This document shows positions 9,626 to 25,913 of a stretch of 32,000 nucleotides of DNA, in pieces (positions within the stretch are counted from its first letter, which is position 1; the number at the start of each line of letters is the position of its first letter). The notes under the pieces are model-generated. The model searched no databases, was not told the origin of the DNA, and saw nothing but the letters and a program-made list of their open reading frames with translations. This DNA comes from Erysipelothrix inopinata (GTDB lineage: Bacteria > Bacillota_I > Bacilli_A > Erysipelotrichales > Erysipelotrichaceae). The DNA is taken from assembly GCF_014396165.1 (NCBI RefSeq), contig NZ_CP060715.1:1620001-1652000 (forward strand), in the 5' to 3' direction. A program made the position numbers and the translations under genes.

Positions 9626-9650
9626 AAAACATCTCTAACGAGGTGTTTTT
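9626..9650 (+). terminator. Rho-independent terminator closing the glycopolymer operon
   Basis: Stem aaaacatctc / gaggtgtttt (one G-U pair), loop taac, T-run. Confidence 0.7.
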
Positions 9651-9665
9651 AATTGTTAGCTAATC

Positions 9666-9695
9666 TTGAATTATACTACATGATGTAGTATAATT
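9666..9695 (+). promoter_or_regulatory. Sigma-A-type promoter (TTGAAT-17-TATAAT) overlapped by a 27-bp perfect palindrome; BlaI/MecI/CopY-type operator
   Basis: AATTATACTACAT-G-ATGTAGTATAATT (9669-9695) has 13-bp arms and the core ACTACA-N3-TGTAGT, the same core as the two boxes at 13763-13807. -35 at 9666-9671, -10 at 9689-9694. Confidence 0.6.
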
Positions 9696-9820: not shown

Positions 9821-9849
9821 TTGTTACAGAGTCTTAAGTGAGTTATAAT
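9821..9849 (+). promoter_or_regulatory. Candidate second promoter (TTGTTA-17-TATAAT) proximal to the YidC-like gene
   Basis: Hexamers at 9821-9826 and 9844-9849 with a 17-nt spacer. No operator overlaps it. Confidence 0.35.
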
Positions 9850-9896: not shown

Positions 9897-10597
9897 ATGC
9901 TAGATATTTTAACAGAGCCGTTCTCTAGATTTATAGGGGCTATTTTTGTTTGGACCCTTGGCATTGTTCATGATCATGGACTTGCACTAATTGTCTTAAG
10001 TATAGTTGTTAACATTATACTTTCCCTTTTTATCATTTTGCTGACAAAATTGAGAAGAAAGAGAAGCAAGCTCAATTACAAATGAAACCGAAGTTGGATG
10101 AATTTAAAAGTGTGTATAAAGGATATGAGCTGTATCTATACACAAATAACGTATATCGATTAAATGACTATCATCCTTCATATGCACTTCGTGGACTTGT
10201 TAGCTTGCTAATTCAGATTCCTTTCTTTATGGGTGCGTATGCATACTTATCCCATTTCACTGGATTTGAAGGTGTATCATTTTTATTTTTAAGTGACTTA
10301 TCGAAACCAGATGGACTCTTATCCATAGGTACTTTAAGCATTAATATTTTACCGTTTGTTATGACGGCCATTAACTTAGCATCAGGTTATGTTTATGCTA
10401 AAGATATGACTAAGAGCGAAAAAATTACGCCTATTGTGATAGCTCTGTTCTTCTTGGTAGTGTTATATAATTCGCCATCTAGTTTACTAGTTTATTGGAC
10501 ATGTAATAATATTTTCAGTCTCATTAAAACGCTTGTTTATGCCAAACTAGATAAACAAAAAGCAGAAAAAATTGCAGGAGGTGCGGTAGAATGTTAG
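9897..10597 (+). pseudogene. YidC/Oxa1-family membrane insertase-like gene split by a frame change (ORFs 9897-10085 and 10082-10597)
   Basis: ORF1 'GLALIVLSIVVNIIL' matches YidC TM1. The ORF2 frame is open from 10013 and reads 'FPFYHFADKIEKKEKQAQLQMKPKLDEFK...LVSLLIQIPFFMGAY', the YidC amphipathic helix and TM2 pattern. A -1 shift between 10013 and 10085 (T5 run at 10027-10031) restores one ~233-aa protein. Confidence 0.6.
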
Positions 10598-13500
10598 TTT
10601 TGTACATTGATCCAGGAACTGGAAGTATGCTTATTTCCGCAACAATTGCGTTATTCTCTGTTGCATTCTTTATGTTAAAAGGAGTTATCTACCGTAAGTT
10701 TAGTATTGGAGGCGACAAGGGAGAAGCCTTGGATCCTTCAAAAAAATATGGCTTAGTTTTCTATTCAGAAGGAAAACAATATTGGAATGTGTTCCAACCA
10801 TTGGTAGAGGAAGCAAGCCGTCGTAATATACCTGCAACATACTTTACAAGTGATAAAGAGGACCCAGGTTTAACTGCTAATCTCGAAGGTATTGAAGCTA
10901 AATTCATTGGCTCAGGACGTGAAGCGTATTATGTTTTAAACCGTCTTAATGCCGATGTTGTTGTTATGACGACACCAGGTCTTGATGTCTTGGAAATTAA
11001 ACGAAGTAAAAATGTTAAACATTATGTACACGTAACTCACTCTGCTGGAAGTGTTAGTGAATATAAAGCGTATGGTACTGACTATTTTGATAGTGTTCTT
11101 GTCGGAGGTGATGGGGACTACAGCTTAATTCGAGAATTAGAATCTAAGCGTAATATTAATGTTAAAGAAATAGAAATAATTGGTAACACATATCTCGATG
11201 TGATGCGAACTAACCTAAAGAATGAAAGTTATGAATATACAATTTTCGAAGAAAAAAGACCAACTATTCTATTATCGCCAACTTGGGGCGACCATGGCTT
11301 GCTAACAAAATTTGGAAATGAACTTCTATCCAAATTAGAAGAGACAGATAAATTTAACATTATTATTCGCCCTCATCCGCAATCTTTTATTTCTGAAGCG
11401 CAAGTTATGGAAGAATTGATGACTAAATTCCCTAATAATGAACATCGTGTTTGGAATAGAGATGTTCAGAACCTTAAAGCAATGGCACATGCAGATATCA
11501 TGATTAGTGATTTCTCAGGTATTATTTTCGATTTCTATGCACTGTTTAAAAAACCTATATTGACTCTCAATGGGCAATTGGAAAAGCGCGGTCGTGATGC
11601 AATAGATGTTGATGGTGATGCATGGCATATCGAATTACTCGACGTTATTGGAAAAAATGTATCAGATAAAGATATCCCTAATTTAATTGACATCATTGAT
11701 CAGACACTTGAAAATGAAGCTGTTAATAATAGTGCAGGAGATACACTATCACTCTCTGATAAATATCCAAATGAAGCGGGTACTCGAGGTATGGATTTCA
11801 TTTCTAAGAAACTAGAAGCAGTTAAAAGTAAAGAGACAGAAAACGAAGTCTCCAATGTTGCTTCACAGCCACTTCTTAATGAAAACTATACATTTAATAA
11901 TCGTTGTGAAGGGGTTCAAGGAAACTGGATTACGAAGTTTATTAAATCAATTTTTAATCCGAACATGCTCATTCAGCTTGCGATGGGATCTGCATTGTTA
12001 GTTGGATATACTTATTTAGGTAAGAGATATCTTCCAGAAGGCGGATTGAACTCATTATTCTTAATAGGGATTTTATCAAAAACAGTCATGATTACAATTG
12101 GACTATTACTAATATTTCTATTATTTACATGGGTTCAAGGAAAAGGTAAGATTTCACTTCAGAAACAATCAGAACCAATCGATTGGAAAGATTTATTCTT
12201 TGTTGCCTTACCAATGACACCGATCATCCAATATATCATAGCTAATCAAGATATCTTGGACTTCAAGAGTTCTGTGTTAGTATTTGCAACGTTTGCTTTA
12301 ATAGCAGCAATTGCTATCGTAATTCTTCCTTGGTTTATGAGTACTGTTCTTGCTAAGGATGTTTCAGTTGCTGTCACAATGTCGTTCTTATTTATTGTAT
12401 TCAATATGGCTAGTTTCGGTAAAGTTACTGAACCAAAAACAATATTCTGGATTCTTCTTGGATTGTGTCTTGCTATATTCTTAATATTATTCTTAGACAA
12501 AAAGAAATTACTAATAATTATTTCCTTGATTTTCTTCGTCACAAACTTTGTTACTTCAGTGACCAAAGGGTCAAATAATGAAAAAGAATTTGTAAATGAA
12601 ACAACAGAATACAATACACGAATTGCTGAGATGACTGAAGGTAAAGAAGTAAAACATACGCCTGATGTGTATATCATTATTTATGATGCATACTCTAATC
12701 AACAAACATTAGATGCATACGGTATTGACCACAGTGATCAATTTAACTATATGCTTGATAAAGGCTTCGCGATTTATGATGGTACGTACTCTGTAGGTCC
12801 TTACTCGATCATTGCGATGTCACATTTATTAAACCCTCAACCAATTCCTGAAAGCTCAACTGAATTCAGACGTATGCTAGCGGGAGATGGTTCTGCAGTT
12901 CAAGAATTTAATAAACTTGGATACTTTACGAACTCTGTCCATGAATCAGATTACATGACAAAAGACTTCGATCCGAAATTTGATTATTCTTATCCAGATA
13001 ACAGTTCCTCAATTGCGCCGCATAAGATTATTAATAAAGCAATTTTAGAGGGAGAGTTCAGGTTCGATGTGGAGTTCTCTGAAAATACATATCCTGATTT
13101 TATGGTTGCAAAACGGAAAGTGCTAGCGCAAAATCGTAAAGAACCAGAGTTCCTATATACTCATGGAAGTAATCCTGGTCATACTCAAAATTCGGGCGTA
13201 TTAACGCAGGCTGATTTTGATCAACATGTGTTCGCATTAGAATCTGCCAATGTGGAAATGCGTGATGATTTTAATGCGCTTGATATTGATAACCGTGAAG
13301 ATGCCATTGTTATTATTGCGGGTGATCACGGACCATACCTTACAAAAACAGGGATTGGATTAGGTGACTTCCCACTATCAGAAATTGATCGATTAGACAT
13401 TCAAGATCGTTACGGAGCGCTTCTTGCAATTCACTGGCCTAAAGGTGTGGATCCAACTCGCTTTGATATTCGTACAGTTCAAGATGCTTTACCTGCAGTT

Positions 13501-13677
13501 CTTGCTTATATGTATGATGACGACGAACTTTTTGATCAAATTCGAATGGGTCGTGATATCTTAGCACCTTACACAGTAGGGGAAGCGAATGTTATTGATG
13601 GCAAGATTGTCGGAGGTCCTAATGATGGAGAACCACTCTATCTTGACCGAAAAGTTAGATTTAAAAATGCTAACTGA
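10591..13677 (+). CDS. Tri-modular envelope enzyme: TagB/TagF-like CDP-glycerol glycerophosphotransferase + polytopic membrane block + alkaline-phosphatase-superfamily (sulfatase/EptA/LtaS-like) domain
   Basis: 1028 aa with GGAGG 9 nt upstream. N-terminal TM. Residues ~50-400 carry 'ILLSPTWG', 'IIRPHPQS' and 'ADIMISDFSGIIFDFYALFKKPIL' (TagF pattern). Residues ~455-650 form about 6 TM helices. Residues ~690-1028 carry 'DVYIIIYDAYSNQ', 'LYTHGSNPGH' and 'IIAGDHGPYL'. Confidence 0.75.
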   Translation: MLVLYIDPGTGSMLISATIALFSVAFFMLKGVIYRKFSIGGDKGEALDPSKKYGLVFYSEGKQYWNVFQPLVEEASRRNIPATYFTSDKEDPGLTANLEGIEAKFIGSGREAYYVLNRLNADVVVMTTPGLDVLEIKRSKNVKHYVHVTHSAGSVSEYKAYGTDYFDSVLVGGDGDYSLIRELESKRNINVKEIEIIGNTYLDVMRTNLKNESYEYTIFEEKRPTILLSPTWGDHGLLTKFGNELLSKLEETDKFNIIIRPHPQSFISEAQVMEELMTKFPNNEHRVWNRDVQNLKAMAHADIMISDFSGIIFDFYALFKKPILTLNGQLEKRGRDAIDVDGDAWHIELLDVIGKNVSDKDIPNLIDIIDQTLENEAVNNSAGDTLSLSDKYPNEAGTRGMDFISKKLEAVKSKETENEVSNVASQPLLNENYTFNNRCEGVQGNWITKFIKSIFNPNMLIQLAMGSALLVGYTYLGKRYLPEGGLNSLFLIGILSKTVMITIGLLLIFLLFTWVQGKGKISLQKQSEPIDWKDLFFVALPMTPIIQYIIANQDILDFKSSVLVFATFALIAAIAIVILPWFMSTVLAKDVSVAVTMSFLFIVFNMASFGKVTEPKTIFWILLGLCLAIFLILFLDKKKLLIIISLIFFVTNFVTSVTKGSNNEKEFVNETTEYNTRIAEMTEGKEVKHTPDVYIIIYDAYSNQQTLDAYGIDHSDQFNYMLDKGFAIYDGTYSVGPYSIIAMSHLLNPQPIPESSTEFRRMLAGDGSAVQEFNKLGYFTNSVHESDYMTKDFDPKFDYSYPDNSSSIAPHKIINKAILEGEFRFDVEFSENTYPDFMVAKRKVLAQNRKEPEFLYTHGSNPGHTQNSGVLTQADFDQHVFALESANVEMRDDFNALDIDNREDAIVIIAGDHGPYLTKTGIGLGDFPLSEIDRLDIQDRYGALLAIHWPKGVDPTRFDIRTVQDALPAVLAYMYDDDELFDQIRMGRDILAPYTVGEANVIDGKIVGGPNDGEPLYLDRKVRFKNAN

Positions 13678-13704: not shown

Positions 13705-13750
13705 AAAAAGCTCTACATAAGGAAACTTTACCTATTTGTAGAGTTTTTTT
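13705..13750 (+). terminator. Rho-independent terminator (large loop)
   Basis: Stem ctctaca (13711-13717) / tgtagag (13737-13743), flanked by an A-run and a T7 run. Confidence 0.55.
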
Positions 13751-13762
13751 ATGTGTTCTAGA

Positions 13763-13808
13763 TACTACAACATGTAGTGTTGACAGAATTAACTACATGT
13801 TGTAGTAT
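13763..13808 (+). promoter_or_regulatory. Autoregulated promoter with two BlaI-type operators flanking -35 and overlapping -10
   Basis: Box 1 is TACTACAACATGTAGT (13763-13778) and box 2 is ACTACATGTTGTAGTA (13792-13807). Each has the ACTACA-N3-TGTAGT core, and they are mutual reverse complements. TTGACA (13780-13785), 17 nt, TAGTAT (13803-13808). Confidence 0.7.
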
Positions 13809-13833
13809 GTCTATGTCGACATGTGGAGGTACT

Positions 13834-14202
13834 ATGAAAACTATAAGTGATGCAGAACTTGAAGTCATGCAATTGATTTGGGACCATGAGGGGGAACCTA
13901 TGACTGTAAAAGAAATTCAACAAAATCTTATTTCGGAAAAACAATGGAAAATTACTACAGTTCAGACCTTTATTAAGCGTCTTACTGACAAAGGCTATCT
14001 TAATGTTGAAAAAATTAATGGTTTAAATAAATATAATGCCAAGGTGAGTCGCGATGCTTTTAGTTCAAGCGAAACCAAGAAAATTATAAATACTATTCAT
14101 TCTGGATCAGTGAAGGATTTCGTTGCTTCACTTATAGATTCTGATGATTTAACGTCAGATGATATTGATGATCTTCGAAACTGGTTGAATGATCATGAGT
14201 AA
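13834..14202 (+). CDS. BlaI/MecI/CopY-family winged-helix transcriptional repressor
   Basis: 122 aa from ATG 13834 (GGAGG upstream). 'ISDAELEVMQLIWD...MTVKEIQQNL...WKITTVQTFIKRLTDKGYL' is the typical Penicillinase_R pattern. The track start at 13777 is non-ATG and lies inside the operator/promoter. Confidence 0.85.
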   Translation: MKTISDAELEVMQLIWDHEGEPMTVKEIQQNLISEKQWKITTVQTFIKRLTDKGYLNVEKINGLNKYNAKVSRDAFSSSETKKIINTIHSGSVKDFVASLIDSDDLTSDDIDDLRNWLNDHE

Positions 14203-15835
14203 TATAGGATTTCATCTTATAGTTATGTCTTTTGTGACATCGATAGTTTATGGTGTTGTTGCACTATGCATAAAACTAAATAATAAATCTTTAAAAGAAC
14301 AAACTAAATATCGAGTATTTCTTTTAACCATGTTACTCTTAGTTTTACCTTTACATCTTGTGTTTCCACAAGTAAATATTGTCAATAACAATAGCATTGA
14401 CAACTTAACCATGAAACCAGATGTTACCTTGATTTCTGCAGAAAAATCTGTAATTGAGACAAAAACAAGTGTGGATTTTCAAAATGAAAATCTTAATAAT
14501 ACCAGTCCTTTCAATGAAGTTAGTACACAAAGCGCATCACTCTATATCTATGTATTTGGTGCAATAATTCTTTTAGGCAGTTACTTAATTTCAATTCTAC
14601 GTTTTAATACTCGAATTCGTAAATTTTTGAAAAGAAATGAAATTAAATCAATTGCTGATAAACCTGAGATATACATTATTGACGAAAAAATGAGCCCGTT
14701 TGTATTTGGATTAATTAATCCAAAGATAATCGTTCCAAAGTATTTAAAAGAAGAAGAAAACTTCCAATTAATATTGGAACACGAACAGACACATATCAAA
14801 CGCCATGATGTGTTGATTAAGCATCTCGCTAACCTGCTCACAATTATTCACTGGTTTAATCCAGCAATCTATCTACTTAAGCGTGATTTATTTAATACCA
14901 TGGAATCTTCGTGTGATGAAGCAGTTCTCGAAAACTGCTCAACTTTGGAGAGAAAAGGTTATGCAACTCTAGTTTTAGATACACTTGAAACAAATATTAT
15001 GAATTCCAGAAAATATTCTTTAGGATTTGCATCAAGTAATAAAGAAAAAACGAAGGAGAGAATTTATTTGATTATGAATGATTCTAAGAAAAGTAAATTT
15101 AAAAAAATATCTACTTATTTTACAATCGGTTTTGCGCTAATCATTACACTGTTCATTTCGAGAAACTTAGTATTTGCTAATACGTTAAATGCACCTGAAC
15201 CTGTAGAAGATATTACTGATGTAATGGGTGATGAGAATGATTCTTCGGATACTAATAATATTTCCAATGAAACAGATGAACTGGATGAAACATTAGAAAC
15301 GACAGAAACTGAAGAAATCGTCGAAACTGAAGAAAAGAACGAAGAGACTGTAGTGCCAGAAGAAAAAACTGTCGTTGAAGAGAAGCTACAGCAAGTTGAG
15401 AAAAAGGAAATCATACAAAAAGTCGAAGAACCTAAAAAAGAAATAAACGATCCCAATCGATGGGCAACTAATCCTGTAAGAGGATCAATTATCTTATGTG
15501 AGTGGGGATGCTATAGCGGTCACTCAGGAACTGACTTTAGTATGGACCCTCAAGTTGAAGGCGTTAATATCTATCCAATTGCGAAGGGTGTTATTATTAA
15601 AGTTGATTATAATGAGGGTGGCTACGGTAATTATATTGTCATTCAGCACGATAATGGGTTTAAATCAACTTATGCTCATATGCAAAGTCTCGACCATAAA
15701 GTTGGGACGAAAGTAACAACTGAAACTGTGATTGGAAAAATAGGAATGACTGGAAGAACGACACAACCACATGTTCACGTGGAAGTTCATAATCCTGAAA
15801 ATGCCAAAGTTGATTTAGGTAAATTTTTAAAATAA
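14189..15835 (+). CDS. BlaR1/MecR1-like M56 signal-transducing metalloprotease with a C-terminal M23 (LytM-type) peptidase domain
   Basis: 548 aa. Its start overlaps the blaI-like stop (ATGATCATGAGTAA). M56 motif 'LILEHEQTHIKRHD'. Late TM 'ISTYFTIGFALIITLFISRNLVFA'. An E/T/K-rich linker precedes M23 motifs 'GHSGTD' (HxxxD) and 'HVHVEVH' (HxH). Confidence 0.85.
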   Translation: MIMSNIGFHLIVMSFVTSIVYGVVALCIKLNNKSLKEQTKYRVFLLTMLLLVLPLHLVFPQVNIVNNNSIDNLTMKPDVTLISAEKSVIETKTSVDFQNENLNNTSPFNEVSTQSASLYIYVFGAIILLGSYLISILRFNTRIRKFLKRNEIKSIADKPEIYIIDEKMSPFVFGLINPKIIVPKYLKEEENFQLILEHEQTHIKRHDVLIKHLANLLTIIHWFNPAIYLLKRDLFNTMESSCDEAVLENCSTLERKGYATLVLDTLETNIMNSRKYSLGFASSNKEKTKERIYLIMNDSKKSKFKKISTYFTIGFALIITLFISRNLVFANTLNAPEPVEDITDVMGDENDSSDTNNISNETDELDETLETTETEEIVETEEKNEETVVPEEKTVVEEKLQQVEKKEIIQKVEEPKKEINDPNRWATNPVRGSIILCEWGCYSGHSGTDFSMDPQVEGVNIYPIAKGVIIKVDYNEGGYGNYIVIQHDNGFKSTYAHMQSLDHKVGTKVTTETVIGKIGMTGRTTQPHVHVEVHNPENAKVDLGKFLK

Positions 15836-15841
15836 CACTTC

Positions 15842-15879
15842 AAGGTATGAATTTATTCTAATAAATTCATACCTTTTTA
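15842..15879 (+). terminator. Rho-independent terminator
   Basis: 14-bp stem aaggtatgaattta / taaattcatacctt, 6-nt loop, T5. Confidence 0.8.
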
Positions 15880-15957: not shown

Positions 15958-17718
15958 ATGAGGCAAGCATTATTTGATTTATTGCGTATCAAGGCGATGA
16001 ACCCACACTTCAAATCGCAACGTGATTTCAAGGAAAAACTTGATTTTTCGTTAGGAAAGATAAACACACTTATAAATGAAGCAATCGAGTTGGATTACAT
16101 GAGAACTCCCGGCTACGATTTAACTCCTAAAGCACTTGAATTTCTAGAGAAATTTAAGGTAGATAATGCTATAATTCTTGCCGCTGGAATCAATGCTCAA
16201 GACACGACTACAAATTATCGTTATCCTAAAGGTATGTATGAAATAAACTCTGTACCTCTTGTTGAACGTCAGATTCAACAATTAAATGAAGTTGGTATTT
16301 ATGATATCACTATTGTAGTAGGGTATGCCAAAGAATCCTTTGAGTATCTTGTAAGTAAATATAATATTGATTTAGAGTATAATGACCAGTTTTCGCATGG
16401 GAATAATATTTTAAGTTTAAAGTGTGTTGCAAATAAATTAAAGAACTCATATGTATTAGACTCAGATATTTTTATGCCCATAAATCTATTCTCAATTTAC
16501 GAGTTAAATTCATGGTGTGCAACTGTAAAATCCAACGATGCAACAAATGCCTGGATTCTAAAAGTTGGATCACACGATAAAGTTGAAAATATTCTTTATG
16601 GCGGAAACAAAGGCAATATTATGACAGGACCAGTCTTTATTAATAGTGCATTTTCTGCGAAACTTGTCGAGGACATGAATCAGGACCTCATTGCTAAAAG
16701 TTCAAGATATTTGTTCTGGGAAGAAATATTCATTAATAGAATCAAGGAATATGAATTGTATGCACGTTTTTTTACTGCTGAGAAAATATTGGAGTTTGAG
16801 AGTTTAAGCGAAGTCCAAAAGTATGATACTTCGTACCTTCAATCTTTAAATGATGAAATCAAGAGTATTATCTCTACAAGTGTCGAGTGGGATGTTTCGT
16901 CTATAAGAAACATCGAATTGTTAAAAAGAGGAGTAACAAATGAAACGTATTCATTTATAATAAATGAAGAAAAATATTGTATTCGAATTCCACGTGGAAG
17001 GTCTGAATCCCTTGTTTCATATTCTAGAGAAAACAGTGTTTATGAGGCTATGAAAGATTCGAATCTTAATGATGATGTTATTTTCTTGGATTTAGACAAA
17101 GGCTATAAAATATCTCGATATATCGAAGGCGAAATGCATGAAATAACGCTTACTGAAAAAATAAATACATTAAAGAAAGCACATCAAAGAAATATTGAGG
17201 TTAAGGAATCATTTGACTTGATGAGTGGAATTCGAAATCTTAGAAAATTGTGCGTACGTCGTGATGCGATTATGTACCGTGATTATAAGGAAGTAAATAA
17301 GAATATCGTTTTGATTTCCAATTTATTAAAAGGAATTAATCGCCCTGCAGTTATTTGTCATGGAGATCCAGTTGAAGGTAATTATATCAAGTTGCAAGAT
17401 GGAAGTATTGTTATGATAGATTGGGAATATGCTGGGATTGCTGATCCGCTTCTTGATGTAGCGATGCTTGCAGTGTTCGAGCCACGTTCTTCTAAGGAAA
17501 TTGATGATATATTGACGCTGTATTTAGAGAGAAACGCAAACAATGAGGAACAGGCCGTATTTTACTCCTATGTAGCTCTATGCGGCTTCTTTTGGGCTCT
17601 CTGGTCACAGTACGAACAATCTCTTGGAGAAAATTTTGGAATGTACAGTATTTATCAGTATCAGTATGCCCGAAGCTACTCTGAGAAAGCGTTAGACGCA
17701 TTAAAGAAATTAGGTTAA
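15958..17718 (+). CDS. Three-part protein: wHTH-like N-terminus + LicC-like nucleotidyltransferase + choline/ethanolamine kinase (LicA-like)
   Basis: 586 aa. Residues ~70-290 align by eye with pneumococcal LicC ('IVVGYAKESFEYLVSKYNIDLEYNDQF...NSYVLDSDIF'). The C-terminus has kinase motifs 'CHGDPVEGNYI' (HxDxxxxN) and 'IDWEYAG'. Confidence 0.75.
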   Translation: MRQALFDLLRIKAMNPHFKSQRDFKEKLDFSLGKINTLINEAIELDYMRTPGYDLTPKALEFLEKFKVDNAIILAAGINAQDTTTNYRYPKGMYEINSVPLVERQIQQLNEVGIYDITIVVGYAKESFEYLVSKYNIDLEYNDQFSHGNNILSLKCVANKLKNSYVLDSDIFMPINLFSIYELNSWCATVKSNDATNAWILKVGSHDKVENILYGGNKGNIMTGPVFINSAFSAKLVEDMNQDLIAKSSRYLFWEEIFINRIKEYELYARFFTAEKILEFESLSEVQKYDTSYLQSLNDEIKSIISTSVEWDVSSIRNIELLKRGVTNETYSFIINEEKYCIRIPRGRSESLVSYSRENSVYEAMKDSNLNDDVIFLDLDKGYKISRYIEGEMHEITLTEKINTLKKAHQRNIEVKESFDLMSGIRNLRKLCVRRDAIMYRDYKEVNKNIVLISNLLKGINRPAVICHGDPVEGNYIKLQDGSIVMIDWEYAGIADPLLDVAMLAVFEPRSSKEIDDILTLYLERNANNEEQAVFYSYVALCGFFWALWSQYEQSLGENFGMYSIYQYQYARSYSEKALDALKKLG

Positions 17719-19887: not shown

Positions 19888-21381
19888 ATGGATAAAATAC
19901 TGAATAAAGTACTTAGTGCTTTTATTGTATTTATTGTATTGGTAAGCAGTGTAGTTACTGCTTCTGCCGCAACCGATAGTGGTTATGTTCTGCTAGCGCA
20001 TATGAGTGATAAGGCTGTTTCAGTTGGAACAAAGGTTAAGCCAGGTACTGTTTTGGGGACTATGGGAATGACAGGTAATGCAACTGTCGAGCATGTTCAT
20101 GTGGAATATACATTAACATCGAATAATGAAAAACATAATAGATTAGATCCTAAGAAATACATTAATATCTATCAAACTTTAGATAAACCATCAAAAATCC
20201 TATGTGATGTAGGTTGTTATACGGGTCATAAAGGAGTAGATATGATTCCAAGCGATGGCTCCTATTCAGCTAAAGTCATATCTCCGGTAAATGGTGTTGT
20301 TGTAGAATCAGGAGTTCAAAAAGCGGGGTGGGGTAATTATGTCCGTATTAGAATTGAAGGAAGTACCACTCCCAAACCAGATAATATAGTTTGGGCGCCA
20401 GGCTACTTTTCGGTTACGGAATTAGGATCAACAGTCCAACTATCACCAAGTGAGTCAGGAAAAGTTGTTCGAAAGTATAAAAAGGACTATGTGGGTCAAT
20501 ATGATGGCTACATTGATACTAATGGATACCGTTGGCTAACATGGACTGAAGGAAACCAACGCGTATACATGGCACAATATGTATTAAATTGGTCATCTGT
20601 TTATGCGGATGCTGCAGGGGTGAAAAAAGTTAACGAAACTTCTGAAACTGGATATTTCACAGTCTCAAAAATCGGTGCAGGCGTACAAGTAATGCCGAGT
20701 GAAAAAGGAAAGTTTGTACGTAAATATCAAGAAGGATATGTTGGACAATATGACGGGTACTTTGATGCAAATGGGTATCGTTGGCTTACTTGGAAAGAAG
20801 GGGATCAACGAGTTTATATGGCCCTATACTCTCTTGATTGGTCATCTATCTATGCAGATGCCGCTGGAGTGAAAAAAGTCAATGAAACAACTGAAACAGG
20901 CTACTTTACAGTGACAAAAATTGGTGCCGGAGTTCAAGTGGTCCCAAGTGAAAAAGGAAAGTTTGTACGTAAATATCAAGAAGGATATGTTGGACAATAT
21001 GATGGATACTTTGATGCAAATGGATATCGTTGGCTTACTTGGAAAGAAGGAAATCAACGAGTTTATATGGCCCTATACTCTCTTGATTGGTCATCTATCT
21101 ATGCAGATGCTGCGGGTGTGAAAAAAACAAATGAAGTAACTGAAAACGGAACTTTCACTGTAACGAAGCTCGGAGCTGGAGTTCAAGTAGTGCCTAGTGA
21201 GAAAGGTCAATTTGTTAGACGATATCAAGAAGGTCAAGAAGGTCAGTATGATGGGTATTTTGATGCGAATGGCTATCGATGGGTGACCTGGAAAGAAGGA
21301 GATCGTAGAGTGTATATGGCAATTCACGTCATCAATGATAGCAATACGATTTATGCTAAAATAAGAAAAAATCCAAATTAA
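19888..21381 (+). CDS. Secreted M23-family peptidase (motif order permuted) with four SH3b (SH3_5-like) cell-wall-binding repeats
   Basis: 497 aa. Signal peptide ends ...VTASA/A. 'GMTGNATVEHVHVEY' (HxH) comes before 'GCYTGHKGVDM' (HxxxD) and 'GWGNYVRI'. Four ~83-aa repeats, 'YDGYFDANGYRWLTWKEGDQRVYMALY', resemble the lysostaphin SH3_5 domain. Confidence 0.8.
   Translation: MDKILNKVLSAFIVFIVLVSSVVTASAATDSGYVLLAHMSDKAVSVGTKVKPGTVLGTMGMTGNATVEHVHVEYTLTSNNEKHNRLDPKKYINIYQTLDKPSKILCDVGCYTGHKGVDMIPSDGSYSAKVISPVNGVVVESGVQKAGWGNYVRIRIEGSTTPKPDNIVWAPGYFSVTELGSTVQLSPSESGKVVRKYKKDYVGQYDGYIDTNGYRWLTWTEGNQRVYMAQYVLNWSSVYADAAGVKKVNETSETGYFTVSKIGAGVQVMPSEKGKFVRKYQEGYVGQYDGYFDANGYRWLTWKEGDQRVYMALYSLDWSSIYADAAGVKKVNETTETGYFTVTKIGAGVQVVPSEKGKFVRKYQEGYVGQYDGYFDANGYRWLTWKEGNQRVYMALYSLDWSSIYADAAGVKKTNEVTENGTFTVTKLGAGVQVVPSEKGQFVRRYQEGQEGQYDGYFDANGYRWVTWKEGDRRVYMAIHVINDSNTIYAKIRKNPN
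20401..21378 (+). repeat. Tandem in-frame 249-bp repeats, three full units and a shorter last one
   Basis: Units start at 20401, 20650, 20899 and 21148. Units 2 and 3 share identical runs of 56 nt (20698-20753 = 20947-21002) and 58 nt (20804-20861 = 21053-21110). Confidence 0.9.
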
Positions 21382-24123: not shown

Positions 24124-24969
24124 ATGAAACGATTGATTAGCTTTTCTCTAGTGCTTATGATTGTATTGGTTGGATGTTCTAAAAAGGAACCGGAAGAAAC
24201 AAAAGAACCTGAAAAACCAAAACCTACTGTTGTCACAAAGATTAATCCAGACAAGGATTATGTTTACGTCGAATCAGTACGAACTGAAAAGAATTCAGAT
24301 CCAGATATCGACTATGATAAGTTTATGTGGGACACTTATTTTTATAGAAACGGTAATCGTGTCGAAGGTGTTCCTTTTCCAGAAATATTAAAATCCAAAA
24401 CTGTATTTAGTCTGGATAAAGTAATTTTAAACTTCAAAGAAGGAGATTCCGATAAATTTAATCAGCAATTTGCAAAAGATATAGAAGATTTGCTTGCAAA
24501 AGAAAAAGAATATCCTGATGTGGGTTATACATATTTATTAGCTGATTATGCTGAGACGAATAATACTATCTCAGTTATGATACGAGAAATTGCTCTCCCT
24601 AGAATCGTTGGCGAGGGTATCTCAAACAACACTAAATCTTATGTTTTTAGTAAAGAAACTGGAAAACTATTATCACCAGAGGAAATACTAGATGTCATAT
24701 CAATTTCAAAAGATAATATCTATACCAATTTAGACAAAAATTCTTATCATAGAGCTTATGATTCAGATCAAGATAAAGTTAGAATTATGAAAACTAAATC
24801 TGAATGTAGTATTGAAGGCGTTTATAAGCGTTGTGAGTTTCCAAGATATGAAGAGGGACTGTTCATTACAAAAGATAACAAGCTTATTTATATCACGGAG
24901 GAATGGAGTCTAGCAGGACAGGGATTGAACCCCGAAATTCCAACAATTAGTTCTTATCTTTACAAATGA
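24124..24969 (+). CDS. Lipoprotein of unknown function (paralog A)
   Basis: Lipobox 'LVGC' in MKRLISFSLVLMIVLVGCSKKEPEE. AGGAGGAAG RBS upstream. Paralogous to the next gene. Confidence 0.7.
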   Translation: MKRLISFSLVLMIVLVGCSKKEPEETKEPEKPKPTVVTKINPDKDYVYVESVRTEKNSDPDIDYDKFMWDTYFYRNGNRVEGVPFPEILKSKTVFSLDKVILNFKEGDSDKFNQQFAKDIEDLLAKEKEYPDVGYTYLLADYAETNNTISVMIREIALPRIVGEGISNNTKSYVFSKETGKLLSPEEILDVISISKDNIYTNLDKNSYHRAYDSDQDKVRIMKTKSECSIEGVYKRCEFPRYEEGLFITKDNKLIYITEEWSLAGQGLNPEIPTISSYLYK

Positions 24970-25027: not shown

Positions 25028-25085
25028 CTTTGCTGAAATTTTGTAAGGTCTTCATGGTATAATGAAAAAAAGGGGGAAGTTTATT

Positions 25086-25913
25086 ATGAAACGACGGATT
25101 GGCTTTTTTCTAGTGCTTATGATTTTACTGGTTGGATGTTCTAAAAAAGAACCAGAGGAGACGAAAGAACCCGAAGATCCAAAACCTACTGTTGTTGAAA
25201 AGATTGATGAATCTAAAGATTACATTTATAGTGAAGTGATTAGAGACGGTAAGACTTTAGAGGGAATCCAGATTGATAAGATTACGGAAGAGAATAGGAA
25301 AGAAAAAACTCCAGATTATTTACCTAAACTTTTAGCTGGAAAAACAAACTACACACTTGAAAAAATAATCTTTAACTTTAAGAGCACCAGTTCTAAGATT
25401 CAAGGAGAAAATTACTCTGTTTTAATCGACACATATCTTGAAGAAGAGGAAAAATTTCCGCAAACTGCACATACTTTTGTAGTTGCAGACTACGCCGAAA
25501 CTGATGATACTATTTCTATAATAATTCGTGATGAATATTTAGCACTTCATAACGGAGAAGGTATCAAATCATCCTACAGTGCTTTAGTTTTCAATAAAAA
25601 AACAGGTGATTTAATGACAAATGAAGAAATACTGGCTCATTTTAATTTGAAAAATGATGATATAACATCAAGTTTATTGTATAAATCAGTTTCTAAAAAG
25701 CAGGATACTGACACAATTAAAACATTAATTGCTCAAAAATACTCCGAATGCAATCCTGGAGGAGCGTTTCAAAAATGCGAATACCCACGTGAAGAAAAAG
25801 CATACTTCATTACAAAAGACAATAAACTCGTCTATATGACAGAAGGATGGAATAACTACGAAGAAGCCATAAATTTCACCATTCCATTTTCCTATATCTA
25901 TAGATTTGAATAG
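25086..25913 (+). CDS. Lipoprotein of unknown function (paralog B)
   Basis: I prefer ATG 25086 (GGGGGAAG RBS 7 nt upstream), giving MKRRIGFFLVLMILLVGCSKKEPEE, colinear with paralog A. The track start at 25062 lacks an RBS. Confidence 0.7.
   Translation: MKRRIGFFLVLMILLVGCSKKEPEETKEPEDPKPTVVEKIDESKDYIYSEVIRDGKTLEGIQIDKITEENRKEKTPDYLPKLLAGKTNYTLEKIIFNFKSTSSKIQGENYSVLIDTYLEEEEKFPQTAHTFVVADYAETDDTISIIIRDEYLALHNGEGIKSSYSALVFNKKTGDLMTNEEILAHFNLKNDDITSSLLYKSVSKKQDTDTIKTLIAQKYSECNPGGAFQKCEYPREEKAYFITKDNKLVYMTEGWNNYEEAINFTIPFSYIYRFE

What the first reader, a model, noticed from the sequence alone, without database searches (positions are those of the whole stretch)
13763..15835. BlaI/BlaR1-type pair whose extracellular sensor is an M23 (LytM) peptidase domain instead of a penicillin-binding domain
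A 122-aa BlaI-family repressor is translationally coupled to a 548-aa protein. That protein has the M56 transducer module (HEXXH 'EHEQTHIKRHD') and a late TM helix. An acidic E/T/K-rich linker of roughly 80 aa follows, then a full M23 domain with both zinc motifs ('GHSGTD' and 'HVHVEVH'). In characterised BlaR1/MecR1 this outside position holds a class-D beta-lactamase-like acyl-sensor. An M23 domain binds or cleaves peptidoglycan peptides, so this module may sense wall status or muropeptides rather than beta-lactams. I know of no characterised M56-M23 sensor.
Basis: partly seen in the sequence, partly recalled or inferred. Interest (0 to 1): 0.72.

Follow-up and report, generated by a model that had tools for sequence, protein, structure and literature searches.

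The report
BlaR1-type sensor with M23 wall-peptidase domain
This Erysipelothrix inopinata gene pair is a BlaI/BlaR1-type repressor and membrane-protease switch whose outward-facing part is a peptidoglycan-peptidase (M23) domain instead of a penicillin-binding domain; this design is common and already catalogued, but nobody has tested what it senses.

Summary
A 122-aa BlaI-family repressor gene (13834-14202) overlaps a 546/548-aa gene (14195 or 14189 to 15835). That gene encodes a complete BlaR1-like M56 protease module with four TM helices, a ~100-aa acidic disordered linker and an M23 domain with all five catalytic residues. The organism is Erysipelothrix inopinata (WP_187533425.1 and WP_187533426.1).

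The fusion is real. Seven of seven homologous loci have the BlaI gene directly upstream, and the 150 best-scoring 50%-identity clusters all share the architecture.

Three perfect 15-bp palindromes (ACTACA-N3-TGTAGT; none expected by chance) overlap two promoters. One is the pair's own promoter. The other drives the adjacent yidC-like/tagF-like envelope operon.

All 166 M56-M23 proteins examined keep the M56 protease motifs, but only 57% keep an intact M23 catalytic set. Among equally well-scoring M23 domains the figures are 52% with M56 and 97% without. Two sister alleles carry Q or N at the catalytic His497. M23 catalysis is therefore dispensable, which fits a binding or sensor role.

What it senses, probably a peptidoglycan peptide, is inference. 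The architecture is already listed in a 2022 review and in a 2026 J Bacteriol paper. I found no characterised member. I rate it a new member of a known, uncharacterised class, of moderate interest.

The parts
9666..9694 (+). Promoter-like TTGAAT-17-TATAAT of the yidC-like/tagF-like operon. Operator 3 (ACTACATGATGTAGT, 9675-9689) fills the spacer and touches the -10 hexamer.
   Evidence: The site is identical in strain L001 although the flanks carry substitutions.
9897..10597 (+). YidC/Oxa1-like insertase gene. In this strain it is split into 62-aa and 171-aa ORFs by a 1-nt deletion in a T run. Putative regulon member.
   Evidence: (60KD_IMP). The gene is an intact 233 aa in other strains.
10591..13677 (+). 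1028-aa protein with an N-terminal TagF-like CDP-glycerol glycerophosphotransferase, a polytopic membrane region and an unassigned C-terminal domain. Putative regulon member.
   Evidence: Glyphos_transf E=9e-10; NCBI name. The C-terminal domain has no hit.
13708..13750 (+). Hairpin followed by a U run. This terminator-like element separates the tagF-like gene from the blaI promoter.
   Evidence: dG -18.2 kcal/mol, z = -4.7.
13764..13778 (.). Operator 1, ACTACAACATGTAGT, immediately upstream of the -35 hexamer.
   Evidence: Conserved in L001 and L012.
13780..13808 (+). Promoter-like TTGACA-17-TAGTAT of the blaI-like/M56-M23 operon.
13792..13806 (.). Operator 2, ACTACATGTTGTAGT, the reverse complement of operator 1. 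It overlaps the spacer and the -10 hexamer.
   Evidence: The arms are conserved and the centre varies in L001. The site is identical in L012.
13834..14202 (+). BlaI/MecI/CopY-family repressor, 122 aa, with no cysteine and therefore no CopY metal motif.
   Evidence: WP_187533425.1; aligns with MecI residues 8-121 and BlaI residues 8-122.
14189..15193 (+). M56 (BlaR1-like) module, residues 1-335: TM1-TM3, a cytoplasmic gluzincin domain and TM4. It carries H198-E199-x-x-H202, E239-x3-D243 and R291.
15194..15508 (+). Acidic Glu/Thr/Lys-rich disordered linker, residues ~336-440.
15509..15835 (+). M23 domain, residues ~441-548, plus the stop codon. Zn ligands are H445, D449 and H530; catalytic histidines are H497 and H528.
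15842..15875 (+). Terminator-like hairpin that closes the two-gene operon.

Best explanation
This is a two-gene BlaI/BlaR1-family regulated-proteolysis switch whose extracellular input module is an M23 (LytM-type) zinc-peptidase domain. Proposed steps follow, each marked as shown from sequence or as inferred.

(1) The 122-aa repressor binds as a dimer to three 15-bp palindromes, ACTACA-N3-TGTAGT. They overlap its own promoter and the promoter of the neighbouring yidC-like/tagF-like envelope operon. The positions and conservation of the sites are shown; binding is inferred.

(2) The 546/548-aa partner sits in the membrane with BlaR1 topology. The gluzincin active site faces the cytoplasm. The M23 domain is outside on a ~100-aa disordered acidic tether that is probably long enough to reach into the wall. 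This is inferred from homology to the BlaR1 cryo-EM structure, charge distribution and the AF2 model.

(3) The M23 zinc groove binds a peptidoglycan-derived peptide, either a stem peptide or a cross-bridge. In BlaR1, beta-lactam displaces extracellular loop EL1 from the sensor active site. By analogy, occupancy of the M23 groove would change how the domain interacts with the EL1-equivalent loop (residues 62-117) and shift the M56 domain to its permissive state. This step is inference.

(4) M56 cleaves the repressor in its C-terminal dimerisation helix. This is inferred.

(5) The pair itself (positive feedback) and the YidC-like/TagF-like glycopolymer genes are derepressed. This is inferred.

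Catalysis by M23 is not needed for the family's common function. The domain acts mainly as a receptor, much as BlaR1's sensor is a beta-lactamase-like fold used as a receptor.
For: Domains and motifs. The M56 part aligns with S. aureus BlaR1 residues 4-324 and matches the cryo-EM structure 8EXP. H198/E199/H202/E239/D243/R291 correspond to BlaR1 H201/E202/H205/E242/D246/R294 and are kept in 166 of 166 M56-M23 proteins.

Topology: there are four hydrophobic segments; loops 29-42 and 137-305 are rich in Lys/Arg, while loops 62-117 and 334-548 are acidic. In the AF2 model the M56 and M23 parts are confident and the linker and EL1 loop are disordered.

Pairing: a Penicillinase_R gene lies directly upstream on the same strand in 7 of 7 loci. 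Kurtz et al. found a BlaI-like gene within five genes of 96% of BlaR homologues.

Operators: 3 exact sites against 0.00 expected in 100 shuffles, all overlapping near-consensus promoters. They are conserved in strains L001 and L012. Analogous double CTAC-Nx-GTAG dyads follow a TTGACA upstream of the blaI gene in distant homologues.

Relaxed M23 catalysis: only 95 of 166 proteins have at least one intact H-D-H-H-H set. Among single-domain proteins, 62 are intact, 39 keep the zinc ligands but have lost a catalytic His, and 12 have lost a zinc ligand. In the score-matched control, 44 of 85 M56-linked domains are intact against 113 of 116 domains without M56 (Fisher p = 2e-15). Sister alleles carry Q497 or N497.

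Context: the pair sits in a phosphocholine/teichoic-acid-type locus. BlaR1's EL1-in-active-site mechanism is described in PMC9834060.
Against: There are no experimental data for any M56-M23 protein. The window's own M23 domain keeps all five catalytic residues, so it may be an active enzyme.

The ~100-aa disordered tether has no counterpart in BlaR1, and it makes allosteric coupling hard to picture. AF2 gives no docking of M23 on the EL1-like loop.

The MecI/BlaI cleavage pair N101-F102 aligns with S99-L100 here, so the cleavage site is not conserved in sequence.

Loss of one catalytic His does not always abolish activity. EnpA naturally has Ala at a position that was mutated to His (A109H) for a crystal structure; my recollection is that this is the first His of the HxH motif and that EnpA is active, but I did not check either point.

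The control set of M23 domains without M56 is made largely of short, possibly fragmentary proteins ranked by an M23-only profile.

Regulon membership rests on one site in one species. In five other loci no extra operator was seen in the flanks.
Confidence: 0.6

Rival explanations
1. The M23 domain is an output rather than a sensor. The protein would be a membrane-tethered, catalytically active peptidoglycan endopeptidase whose amount is set by BlaI autoregulation. The M56 module would sense something else, through its membrane helices, the EL1 loop or a cytoplasmic cue.
For: The window protein has the complete H445/D449/H497/H528/H530 set. Its M23 fold is closest to active endopeptidases such as ShyA, lysostaphin and LytM. 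The operon is autoregulated, so induction raises the M23 dose. NCBI names the protein a peptidoglycan DD-metalloendopeptidase family protein. BlaR homologues without any sensor domain exist and are functional regulators.
Against: 71 of 166 family members have no intact M23 catalytic set although all keep the M56 motifs. Alleles in sister strains carry Q or N at residue 497. The M23 domain sits exactly where every studied BlaR carries its input domain.
Confidence: 0.2
2. The M23 domain is a protein-binding hub of the EnvC/NlpD/DipM type. It would detect or recruit another protein, such as an amidase or a secreted hydrolase, rather than peptidoglycan itself.
For: Degenerate M23 domains act this way (PMC9662197). 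The AF2 model also matches the EnvC and DipM LytM domains. Many family members have lost catalytic residues. A second M23 protein is encoded 4 kb downstream.
Against: EnvC/NlpD-type domains typically lack the zinc ligands or the zinc itself. Here the zinc ligands are kept in about 85-90% of domains and in the window protein. No conserved partner gene accompanies the pair in 7 loci.
Confidence: 0.12
3. The site at 9675-9689 is a chance palindrome and the system only regulates itself. Its position inside the envelope locus would then be incidental.
For: Neighbours of the pair are unrelated in the other loci, and no extra operators were seen there. A second promoter-like site at 9821-9849 lies closer to the yidC-like start.
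Against: An exact 12-base-specified palindrome is not expected by chance: no match occurred in any of 100 shuffles. The site sits in the spacer of a TTGAAT-17-TATAAT promoter. It is identical in a strain whose flanks differ.
Confidence: 0.1

Closest known systems
BlaR1/BlaI of S. aureus and B. licheniformis; MecR1/MecI
   Same: The repressor is a winged-helix Penicillinase_R protein with TACA/TGTA-type dyad operators at its own promoter. The partner has four TM helices and a cytoplasmic gluzincin domain with HEXXH...EXXXD and the Arg294 equivalent. There is a probable autocleavage loop with a conserved Phe (F280). The two genes are adjacent and co-oriented.
   Different: The extracellular domain is an M23 zinc peptidase on a ~100-aa disordered tether, not a class-D beta-lactamase-like penicillin-binding domain. 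NCBIfam blaR1_generic scores 80 against a cut-off of 400. There is no beta-lactamase or PBP2a gene nearby. The repressor cleavage pair N-F aligns with S-L.
CenIR of Clostridioides difficile (Kurtz et al. 2026, PMC13492132)
   Same: It is a BlaIR-family pair without a beta-lactam-binding domain, linked to cell-envelope genes including a peptidoglycan hydrolase, and its signal is unknown.
   Different: CenR's C-terminal region is short and mostly unstructured, with no recognisable domain. Here the domain is a well-folded M23 with a predictable ligand class. The regulon members differ.
Sensor-less BlaIR homologues (M. tuberculosis and M. abscessus BlaIR; P. aeruginosa PvmSR)
   Same: They combine an M56 protease with a BlaI-like repressor and are used for purposes other than beta-lactam resistance.
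   Different: They have no extracellular domain at all.
Catalytic M23 endopeptidases (ShyA, LytM, lysostaphin, EnpA) and degenerate LytM factors (EnvC, NlpD, DipM, Csd2, SpoIIQ)
   Same: The fold and motifs match. Across the M56-linked family the domain ranges from fully equipped to catalytically incomplete.
   Different: None of these is fused to a signalling protease. The typical incomplete form here keeps the zinc ligands and loses one catalytic His. By the review's definition, the classical degenerate folds lack the catalytic motifs and/or the zinc.

Membership tests
BlaI/MecI/CopY repressors (Penicillinase_R) | N-terminal winged-helix DNA-binding domain plus a C-terminal helical dimerisation domain, ~120-130 aa | tested here: met
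   PF03965 E=3e-30 over residues 4-119. The protein aligns with MecI residues 8-121 and BlaI residues 8-122.
BlaI/MecI/CopY repressors (Penicillinase_R) | TACA/TGTA-type dyad operators overlapping the regulated promoters, including its own | tested here: met
   There are three exact ACTACA-N3-TGTAGT sites, all at promoters, against 0 expected. They are conserved in L001 and L012. Binding itself was not tested.
BlaI/MecI/CopY repressors (Penicillinase_R) | Cleavage site in the dimerisation helix (N101-F102 in BlaI/MecI) | tested here: inconclusive
   The aligned residues are S99-L100. The helix is conserved but the residues are not.
CopY/TcrY copper repressors | C-terminal CxCx4CxC metal-binding motif | tested here: not met
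   The protein contains no cysteine. TIGR02698 scores 79.5 against a cut-off of 121.95.
BlaR1/MecR1 beta-lactam sensor-transducers | Four-TM M56 module with a cytoplasmic HEXXH...EXXXD gluzincin site and the conserved Arg (R294) | tested here: met
   PF05569 E=5e-41. The module aligns with BlaR1 residues 4-324 and matches 8EXP in Foldseek. The motifs are invariant. Topology is consistent.
BlaR1/MecR1 beta-lactam sensor-transducers | Autocleavage loop entering the active site (S283/F284 in BlaR1) | tested here: inconclusive
   A low-confidence loop spans residues 271-282. F280 lies 11 residues before R291, compared with F284 lying 10 residues before R294 in BlaR1. The family consensus is P-x-x-F-G-E. 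Cleavage was not tested.
BlaR1/MecR1 beta-lactam sensor-transducers | Extracellular penicillin-binding (class-D beta-lactamase-like / transpeptidase) sensor domain | tested here: not met
   There is no such Pfam or NCBIfam hit; residues 444-537 are Peptidase_M23. blaR1_generic scores 80 against a cut-off of 400.
M56+M23 architecture class (InterPro; Kurtz et al. 2026 Fig. 7) | PF05569 followed by PF01551 in one polypeptide, with an adjacent BlaI-like gene | tested here: met
   The order M56 then M23 holds in 166 of 166 proteins.
Peptidase M23 (catalytic) | HxxxD and HxH zinc motifs plus the third catalytic His, and the M23 beta-sheet fold | tested here: met
   H445, D449, H497, H528 and H530 are present. 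AF2 pLDDT is above 90 for the domain. Foldseek matches ShyA, EnpA, lysostaphin and LytM with E values of 1e-9 to 1e-7.
Peptidase M23 (catalytic) | Peptidoglycan endopeptidase activity | not testable with these tools
   This needs purified domain and sacculi or muropeptides.
Degenerate LytM factors (EnvC/NlpD type) | Loss of zinc ligands or catalytic motifs | tested here: not met
   The window protein keeps all five residues. Sister alleles lose only H497.

The most novel reading that the evidence does not exclude
The M23 domain is a substrate-trapping receptor for the cell's own peptidoglycan peptide state. This would make the pair a wall-homeostasis feedback loop that tunes glycopolymer synthesis through the YidC-like/TagF-like operon. 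The sensor would be matched to the wall chemistry of each strain: the M23 C-terminal half and the TagF-like catalytic region are both swapped as divergent alleles between strains. It would also supply a first defined ligand class for the ~94% of BlaR-like sensors that do not bind beta-lactams.
Probability: 0.2. Interest if true: 0.75.

Novelty: new member of a known kind. Interest (0 to 1): 0.5.

Why it matters
BlaIR-type switches are widespread, and only about 6% carry a beta-lactam-binding domain (PMC13492132). What the rest sense is an open question, and even the one studied in depth, CenIR, has no known signal.

The M23 class is attractive because the ligand class of its sensor fold is known: peptidoglycan peptides bound at a zinc groove. 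That allows binding and induction experiments to be designed directly.

This locus adds a concrete starting point. It has a defined operator and two candidate target promoters. It also offers three natural alleles that differ at a catalytic histidine (H, Q or N at residue 497). The family-wide contrast between invariant M56 motifs and dispensable M23 catalysis supports the receptor idea. If that idea holds, it would be a second case of an enzyme-like fold reused as a receptor on this transducer, after BlaR1's beta-lactamase-like sensor.

Tried and rejected
(1) Positive selection on the M23 domain. The segment that diverges between strains (codons 471-546) has dS of about 2.5 and dN/dS of 0.08. 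It is therefore an old allele imported by recombination, not fast adaptive change.

(2) Homologue search with the M23 domain alone returned nothing because of the word index. It was repeated with an alignment.

(3) The scan of GTDB representative genomes found no close relative. The organism was identified instead by exact-sequence look-up.

(4) Assigning the C-terminal ~340 aa of the 1028-aa TagF-like protein failed. There was no PDB, Pfam or NCBIfam hit, and the single-sequence AF2 model was useless (pLDDT 33).

(5) A riboswitch or structured leader in the 200-nt region before the yidC-like gene was not found: no Rfam hit and folding z = -0.4.

(6) CopY identity was rejected (no cysteine).

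(7) I first recalled that BlaR1 autocleaves at R293/R294. PMC9834060 gives S283/F284, with R294 as an active-site arginine, and the report uses the corrected assignment.

(8) Extra operators near the pair in five distant loci were not found.

(9) The co-variation of M23 and TagF-like alleles rests on only two independent haplotypes, so it is not used as evidence.
Full report
**What is there.** The window comes from Erysipelothrix inopinata. Exact-sequence look-ups give WP_187533425.1 for the repressor and QNN60296.1/WP_187533426.1 for the partner. The partner is annotated 'peptidoglycan DD-metalloendopeptidase family protein' or 'M56 family metallopeptidase'.

The 122-aa ORF at 13834-14202 is a Penicillinase_R protein (E=3e-30). 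It aligns along its whole length with MecI and BlaI crystal-structure sequences. It has no cysteine, so it is not a CopY-type metal repressor. Its stop codon lies inside the first codons of the next ORF.

That ORF runs from 14189 or 14195 to 15835 (548 or 546 aa). It carries Peptidase_M56 at residues 12-295 (E=5e-41) and Peptidase_M23 at residues 444-537 (E=5e-23).

**The M56 half is a complete BlaR1-type transducer.** Residues 10-322 align with S. aureus BlaR1 residues 4-324. The AF2 model matches the BlaR1 cryo-EM structure 8EXP over 359 columns.

H198-E199-x-x-H202, E239-x3-D243 and R291 correspond to BlaR1 H201/E202/H205, E242/D246 and R294. In BlaR1 these are the zinc site and the Asp-Arg salt bridge of the active site (PMC9834060). 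All six residues are invariant in 166 of 166 M56-M23 proteins and in 96 of 96 other M56 proteins examined.

A low-confidence loop at residues 271-282 leads up to F280, which lies 11 residues before R291. In BlaR1 the autocleavage P1' residue F284 lies 10 residues before R294, so this probably corresponds to the autocleavage loop.

There are four hydrophobic segments: 10-28, 43-61, 118-136 and 311-329. Loops 29-42 and 137-305 are rich in Lys/Arg, and loops 62-117 and 334-548 are acidic. This reproduces BlaR1 topology and places the M23 domain outside the cell.

**The outside part.** Residues ~334-435 are 24% Glu and 12% Thr, and the AF2 model is disordered over 341-442 (pLDDT below 50). The M23 domain is modelled with pLDDT above 90. 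It is closest to ShyA, EnpA, lysostaphin and LytM.

It keeps the zinc ligands H445, D449 and H530 and the two catalytic histidines H497 and H528. The roles of these residues are as described in PMC9662197.

**The fusion and the pairing are real and common.** Related Erysipelothrix strains carry the same gene in three allelic forms. A profile search of 1.84 billion cluster representatives returned 150 top hits, all scoring above 400 bits and matching both parts of the profile. In the 166 M56-M23 proteins I examined, M56 always precedes M23.

In 7 of 7 loci fetched, a Penicillinase_R gene lies directly upstream on the same strand, while the other neighbours are unrelated.

The literature already lists this architecture. 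The 2022 M23 review names M56 among the rare extra catalytic domains. Kurtz et al. 2026 show M56+M23 among the nine M56 architectures with at least 100 InterPro entries. [quoted passage not shown] I found no paper that characterises an M56-M23 protein.

**Operators and regulon.** Exact matches to ACTACA-N3-TGTAGT occur three times in 32 kb. No match occurred in any of 100 dinucleotide-preserving shuffles.

- Two sites flank the -35 hexamer and overlap the -10 hexamer of the pair's own TTGACA-17-TAGTAT promoter (13764-13778 and 13792-13806).
- The third (9675-9689) fills the spacer of a TTGAAT-17-TATAAT promoter. That promoter lies behind a terminator-like hairpin (9626-9649) and ahead of a yidC-like gene and a 1028-aa TagF-like membrane protein.

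All three sites are conserved in strain L001 (95% nucleotide identity overall). There, one site keeps its arms but changes its centre. The two autoregulatory sites are identical in the more distant L012.

Distant homologues have the same layout with their own dyads: a TTGACA followed by two CTAC-Nx-GTAG dyads upstream of blaI. Terminator-like hairpins at 13708-13750 and 15842-15875 bound the two-gene operon.

The surrounding genes include LicD (two copies), EpsG (two copies), GT4 glycosyltransferases and an LtaS-like sulfatase. There are also a nucleotidyltransferase-choline kinase fusion, a choline kinase and EutH. This marks a phosphocholine/teichoic-acid-type envelope locus.

**Is the M23 domain an enzyme or a receptor?** Across 166 M56-M23 proteins (228 M23 domains), only 106 domains and 95 proteins have the full H-D-H-H-H set. 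Among single-domain proteins, 62 are intact, 39 keep the zinc ligands but have lost H497 or H528, and 12 have lost a zinc ligand. The replacement residues are diverse (Q, C, N, S, A and others), which points to repeated independent loss.

In the window's own clade, the alleles carry H, Q or N at position 497.

As a control I collected the 120 best M23 proteins without an M56 hit. Of these, 115 of 119 are intact. Restricting both sets to domains scoring at least 120 bits on the same HMM gives 44 of 85 against 113 of 116 (p = 2e-15).

The control is imperfect. It consists of many short, possibly fragmentary proteins, ranked by an M23-only profile. One M23 protein, EnpA, naturally has Ala at a position that was mutated to His (A109H) for crystallography. 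I recall that it is active and that this is the first His of HxH, but I did not verify either point.

Even so, the contrast with the 100% conservation of the M56 motifs in the same proteins is clear. The shared function needs the M56 protease and a zinc-binding M23 fold, but not M23 catalysis. This argues for a receptor role and against a plain tethered hydrolase.

**Mechanism proposed.** By homology, the repressor dimer occupies the three operators. The membrane protein exposes M23 to the wall. A peptidoglycan-derived peptide in the zinc groove is the signal. M56 then cleaves the repressor, which derepresses the pair and the YidC-like/TagF-like operon.

The coupling step can be modelled on BlaR1, where extracellular loop EL1 (residues 56-96) sits in the sensor active site and is displaced by beta-lactam. 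Here the equivalent loop (62-117) is 56 aa and disordered.

The weak points are as follows:
- The long tether has no counterpart in BlaR1.
- AF2 shows no docking of M23 on the loop.
- The repressor cleavage residues are not conserved: N-F aligns with S-L.
- The third operator has been seen in only one species.

I put 0.6 on 'BlaIR-type switch with M23 as its input domain' and roughly half of that on a peptidoglycan peptide as the ligand.

**Rivals.** The alternatives are an active tethered endopeptidase as output (0.2), an EnvC-like protein-binding hub (0.12), and a purely autoregulatory cassette with a chance third site (0.1).

**Side observations.** Between the window and L001, two segments stand out against a 97-99% identical background: TagF-like residues 131-540 (dS 1.65) and M23 residues 471-546 (dS ~2.5, dN/dS 0.08). 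These are recombination imports, not positive selection. The two co-vary in the only two independent haplotypes available, which is too few to interpret.

**Verdict.** This is a new member of a catalogued but experimentally uncharacterised class, of moderate interest.

Noticed in passing
window 19888-21381 (+): A secreted 497-aa protein carries a circularly permuted M23 domain. Residues 31-92 hold the C-terminal half (the mid-domain His and HVHVE). Residues 102-155 hold the N-terminal half (HKGVD). Four SH3_5-like repeats follow. It shares the unusual C-x3-C-Y-x-G-H motif with the M56-linked M23 domain. No paper on permuted M23 domains was found.
   Followed up: partly
window 9897-10597 (+): The yidC/Oxa1-like gene is split into 62-aa and 171-aa ORFs by a 1-nt deletion in a T run near 10021. 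The gene is an intact 233 aa in other Erysipelothrix strains. The split is present in two assemblies of E. inopinata.
   Followed up: yes
window 10992-12191 and 15500-15791, compared with L001: Two mosaic segments show 62-82% nucleotide identity against a 97-99% background: TagF-like residues 131-540 and the M23 C-terminal half. Both have saturated dS and low dN/dS, so they are recombination-imported alleles. They co-vary in the two haplotypes available.
   Followed up: partly
window 10591-13677 (+): A 1028-aa protein fuses a TagF-like glycerophosphotransferase, a polytopic membrane region and a ~340-aa C-terminal domain. The C-terminal domain has no Pfam, NCBIfam or PDB match, and single-sequence AF2 failed.
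   Followed up: partly
window 24124-24969 and 25062-25913 (+): Two tandem paralogous putative lipoproteins are 44% identical, with near-identical signal and lipobox leaders (LVGCSKKEPEETKEPE). Neither has a family assignment.
   Followed up: partly
window 15958-17718 (+): A 586-aa fusion of a MobA-like nucleotidyltransferase and a choline/ethanolamine-kinase-like domain (LicC/LicA-like) lies directly downstream of the pair. No operator lies in front of it.
   Followed up: no
window 9821-9849 (+): A second promoter-like site (TTGTTA-17-TATAAT) lies between the operator-bearing promoter and the yidC-like start codon. The operon may therefore also have an unregulated promoter.
   Followed up: no
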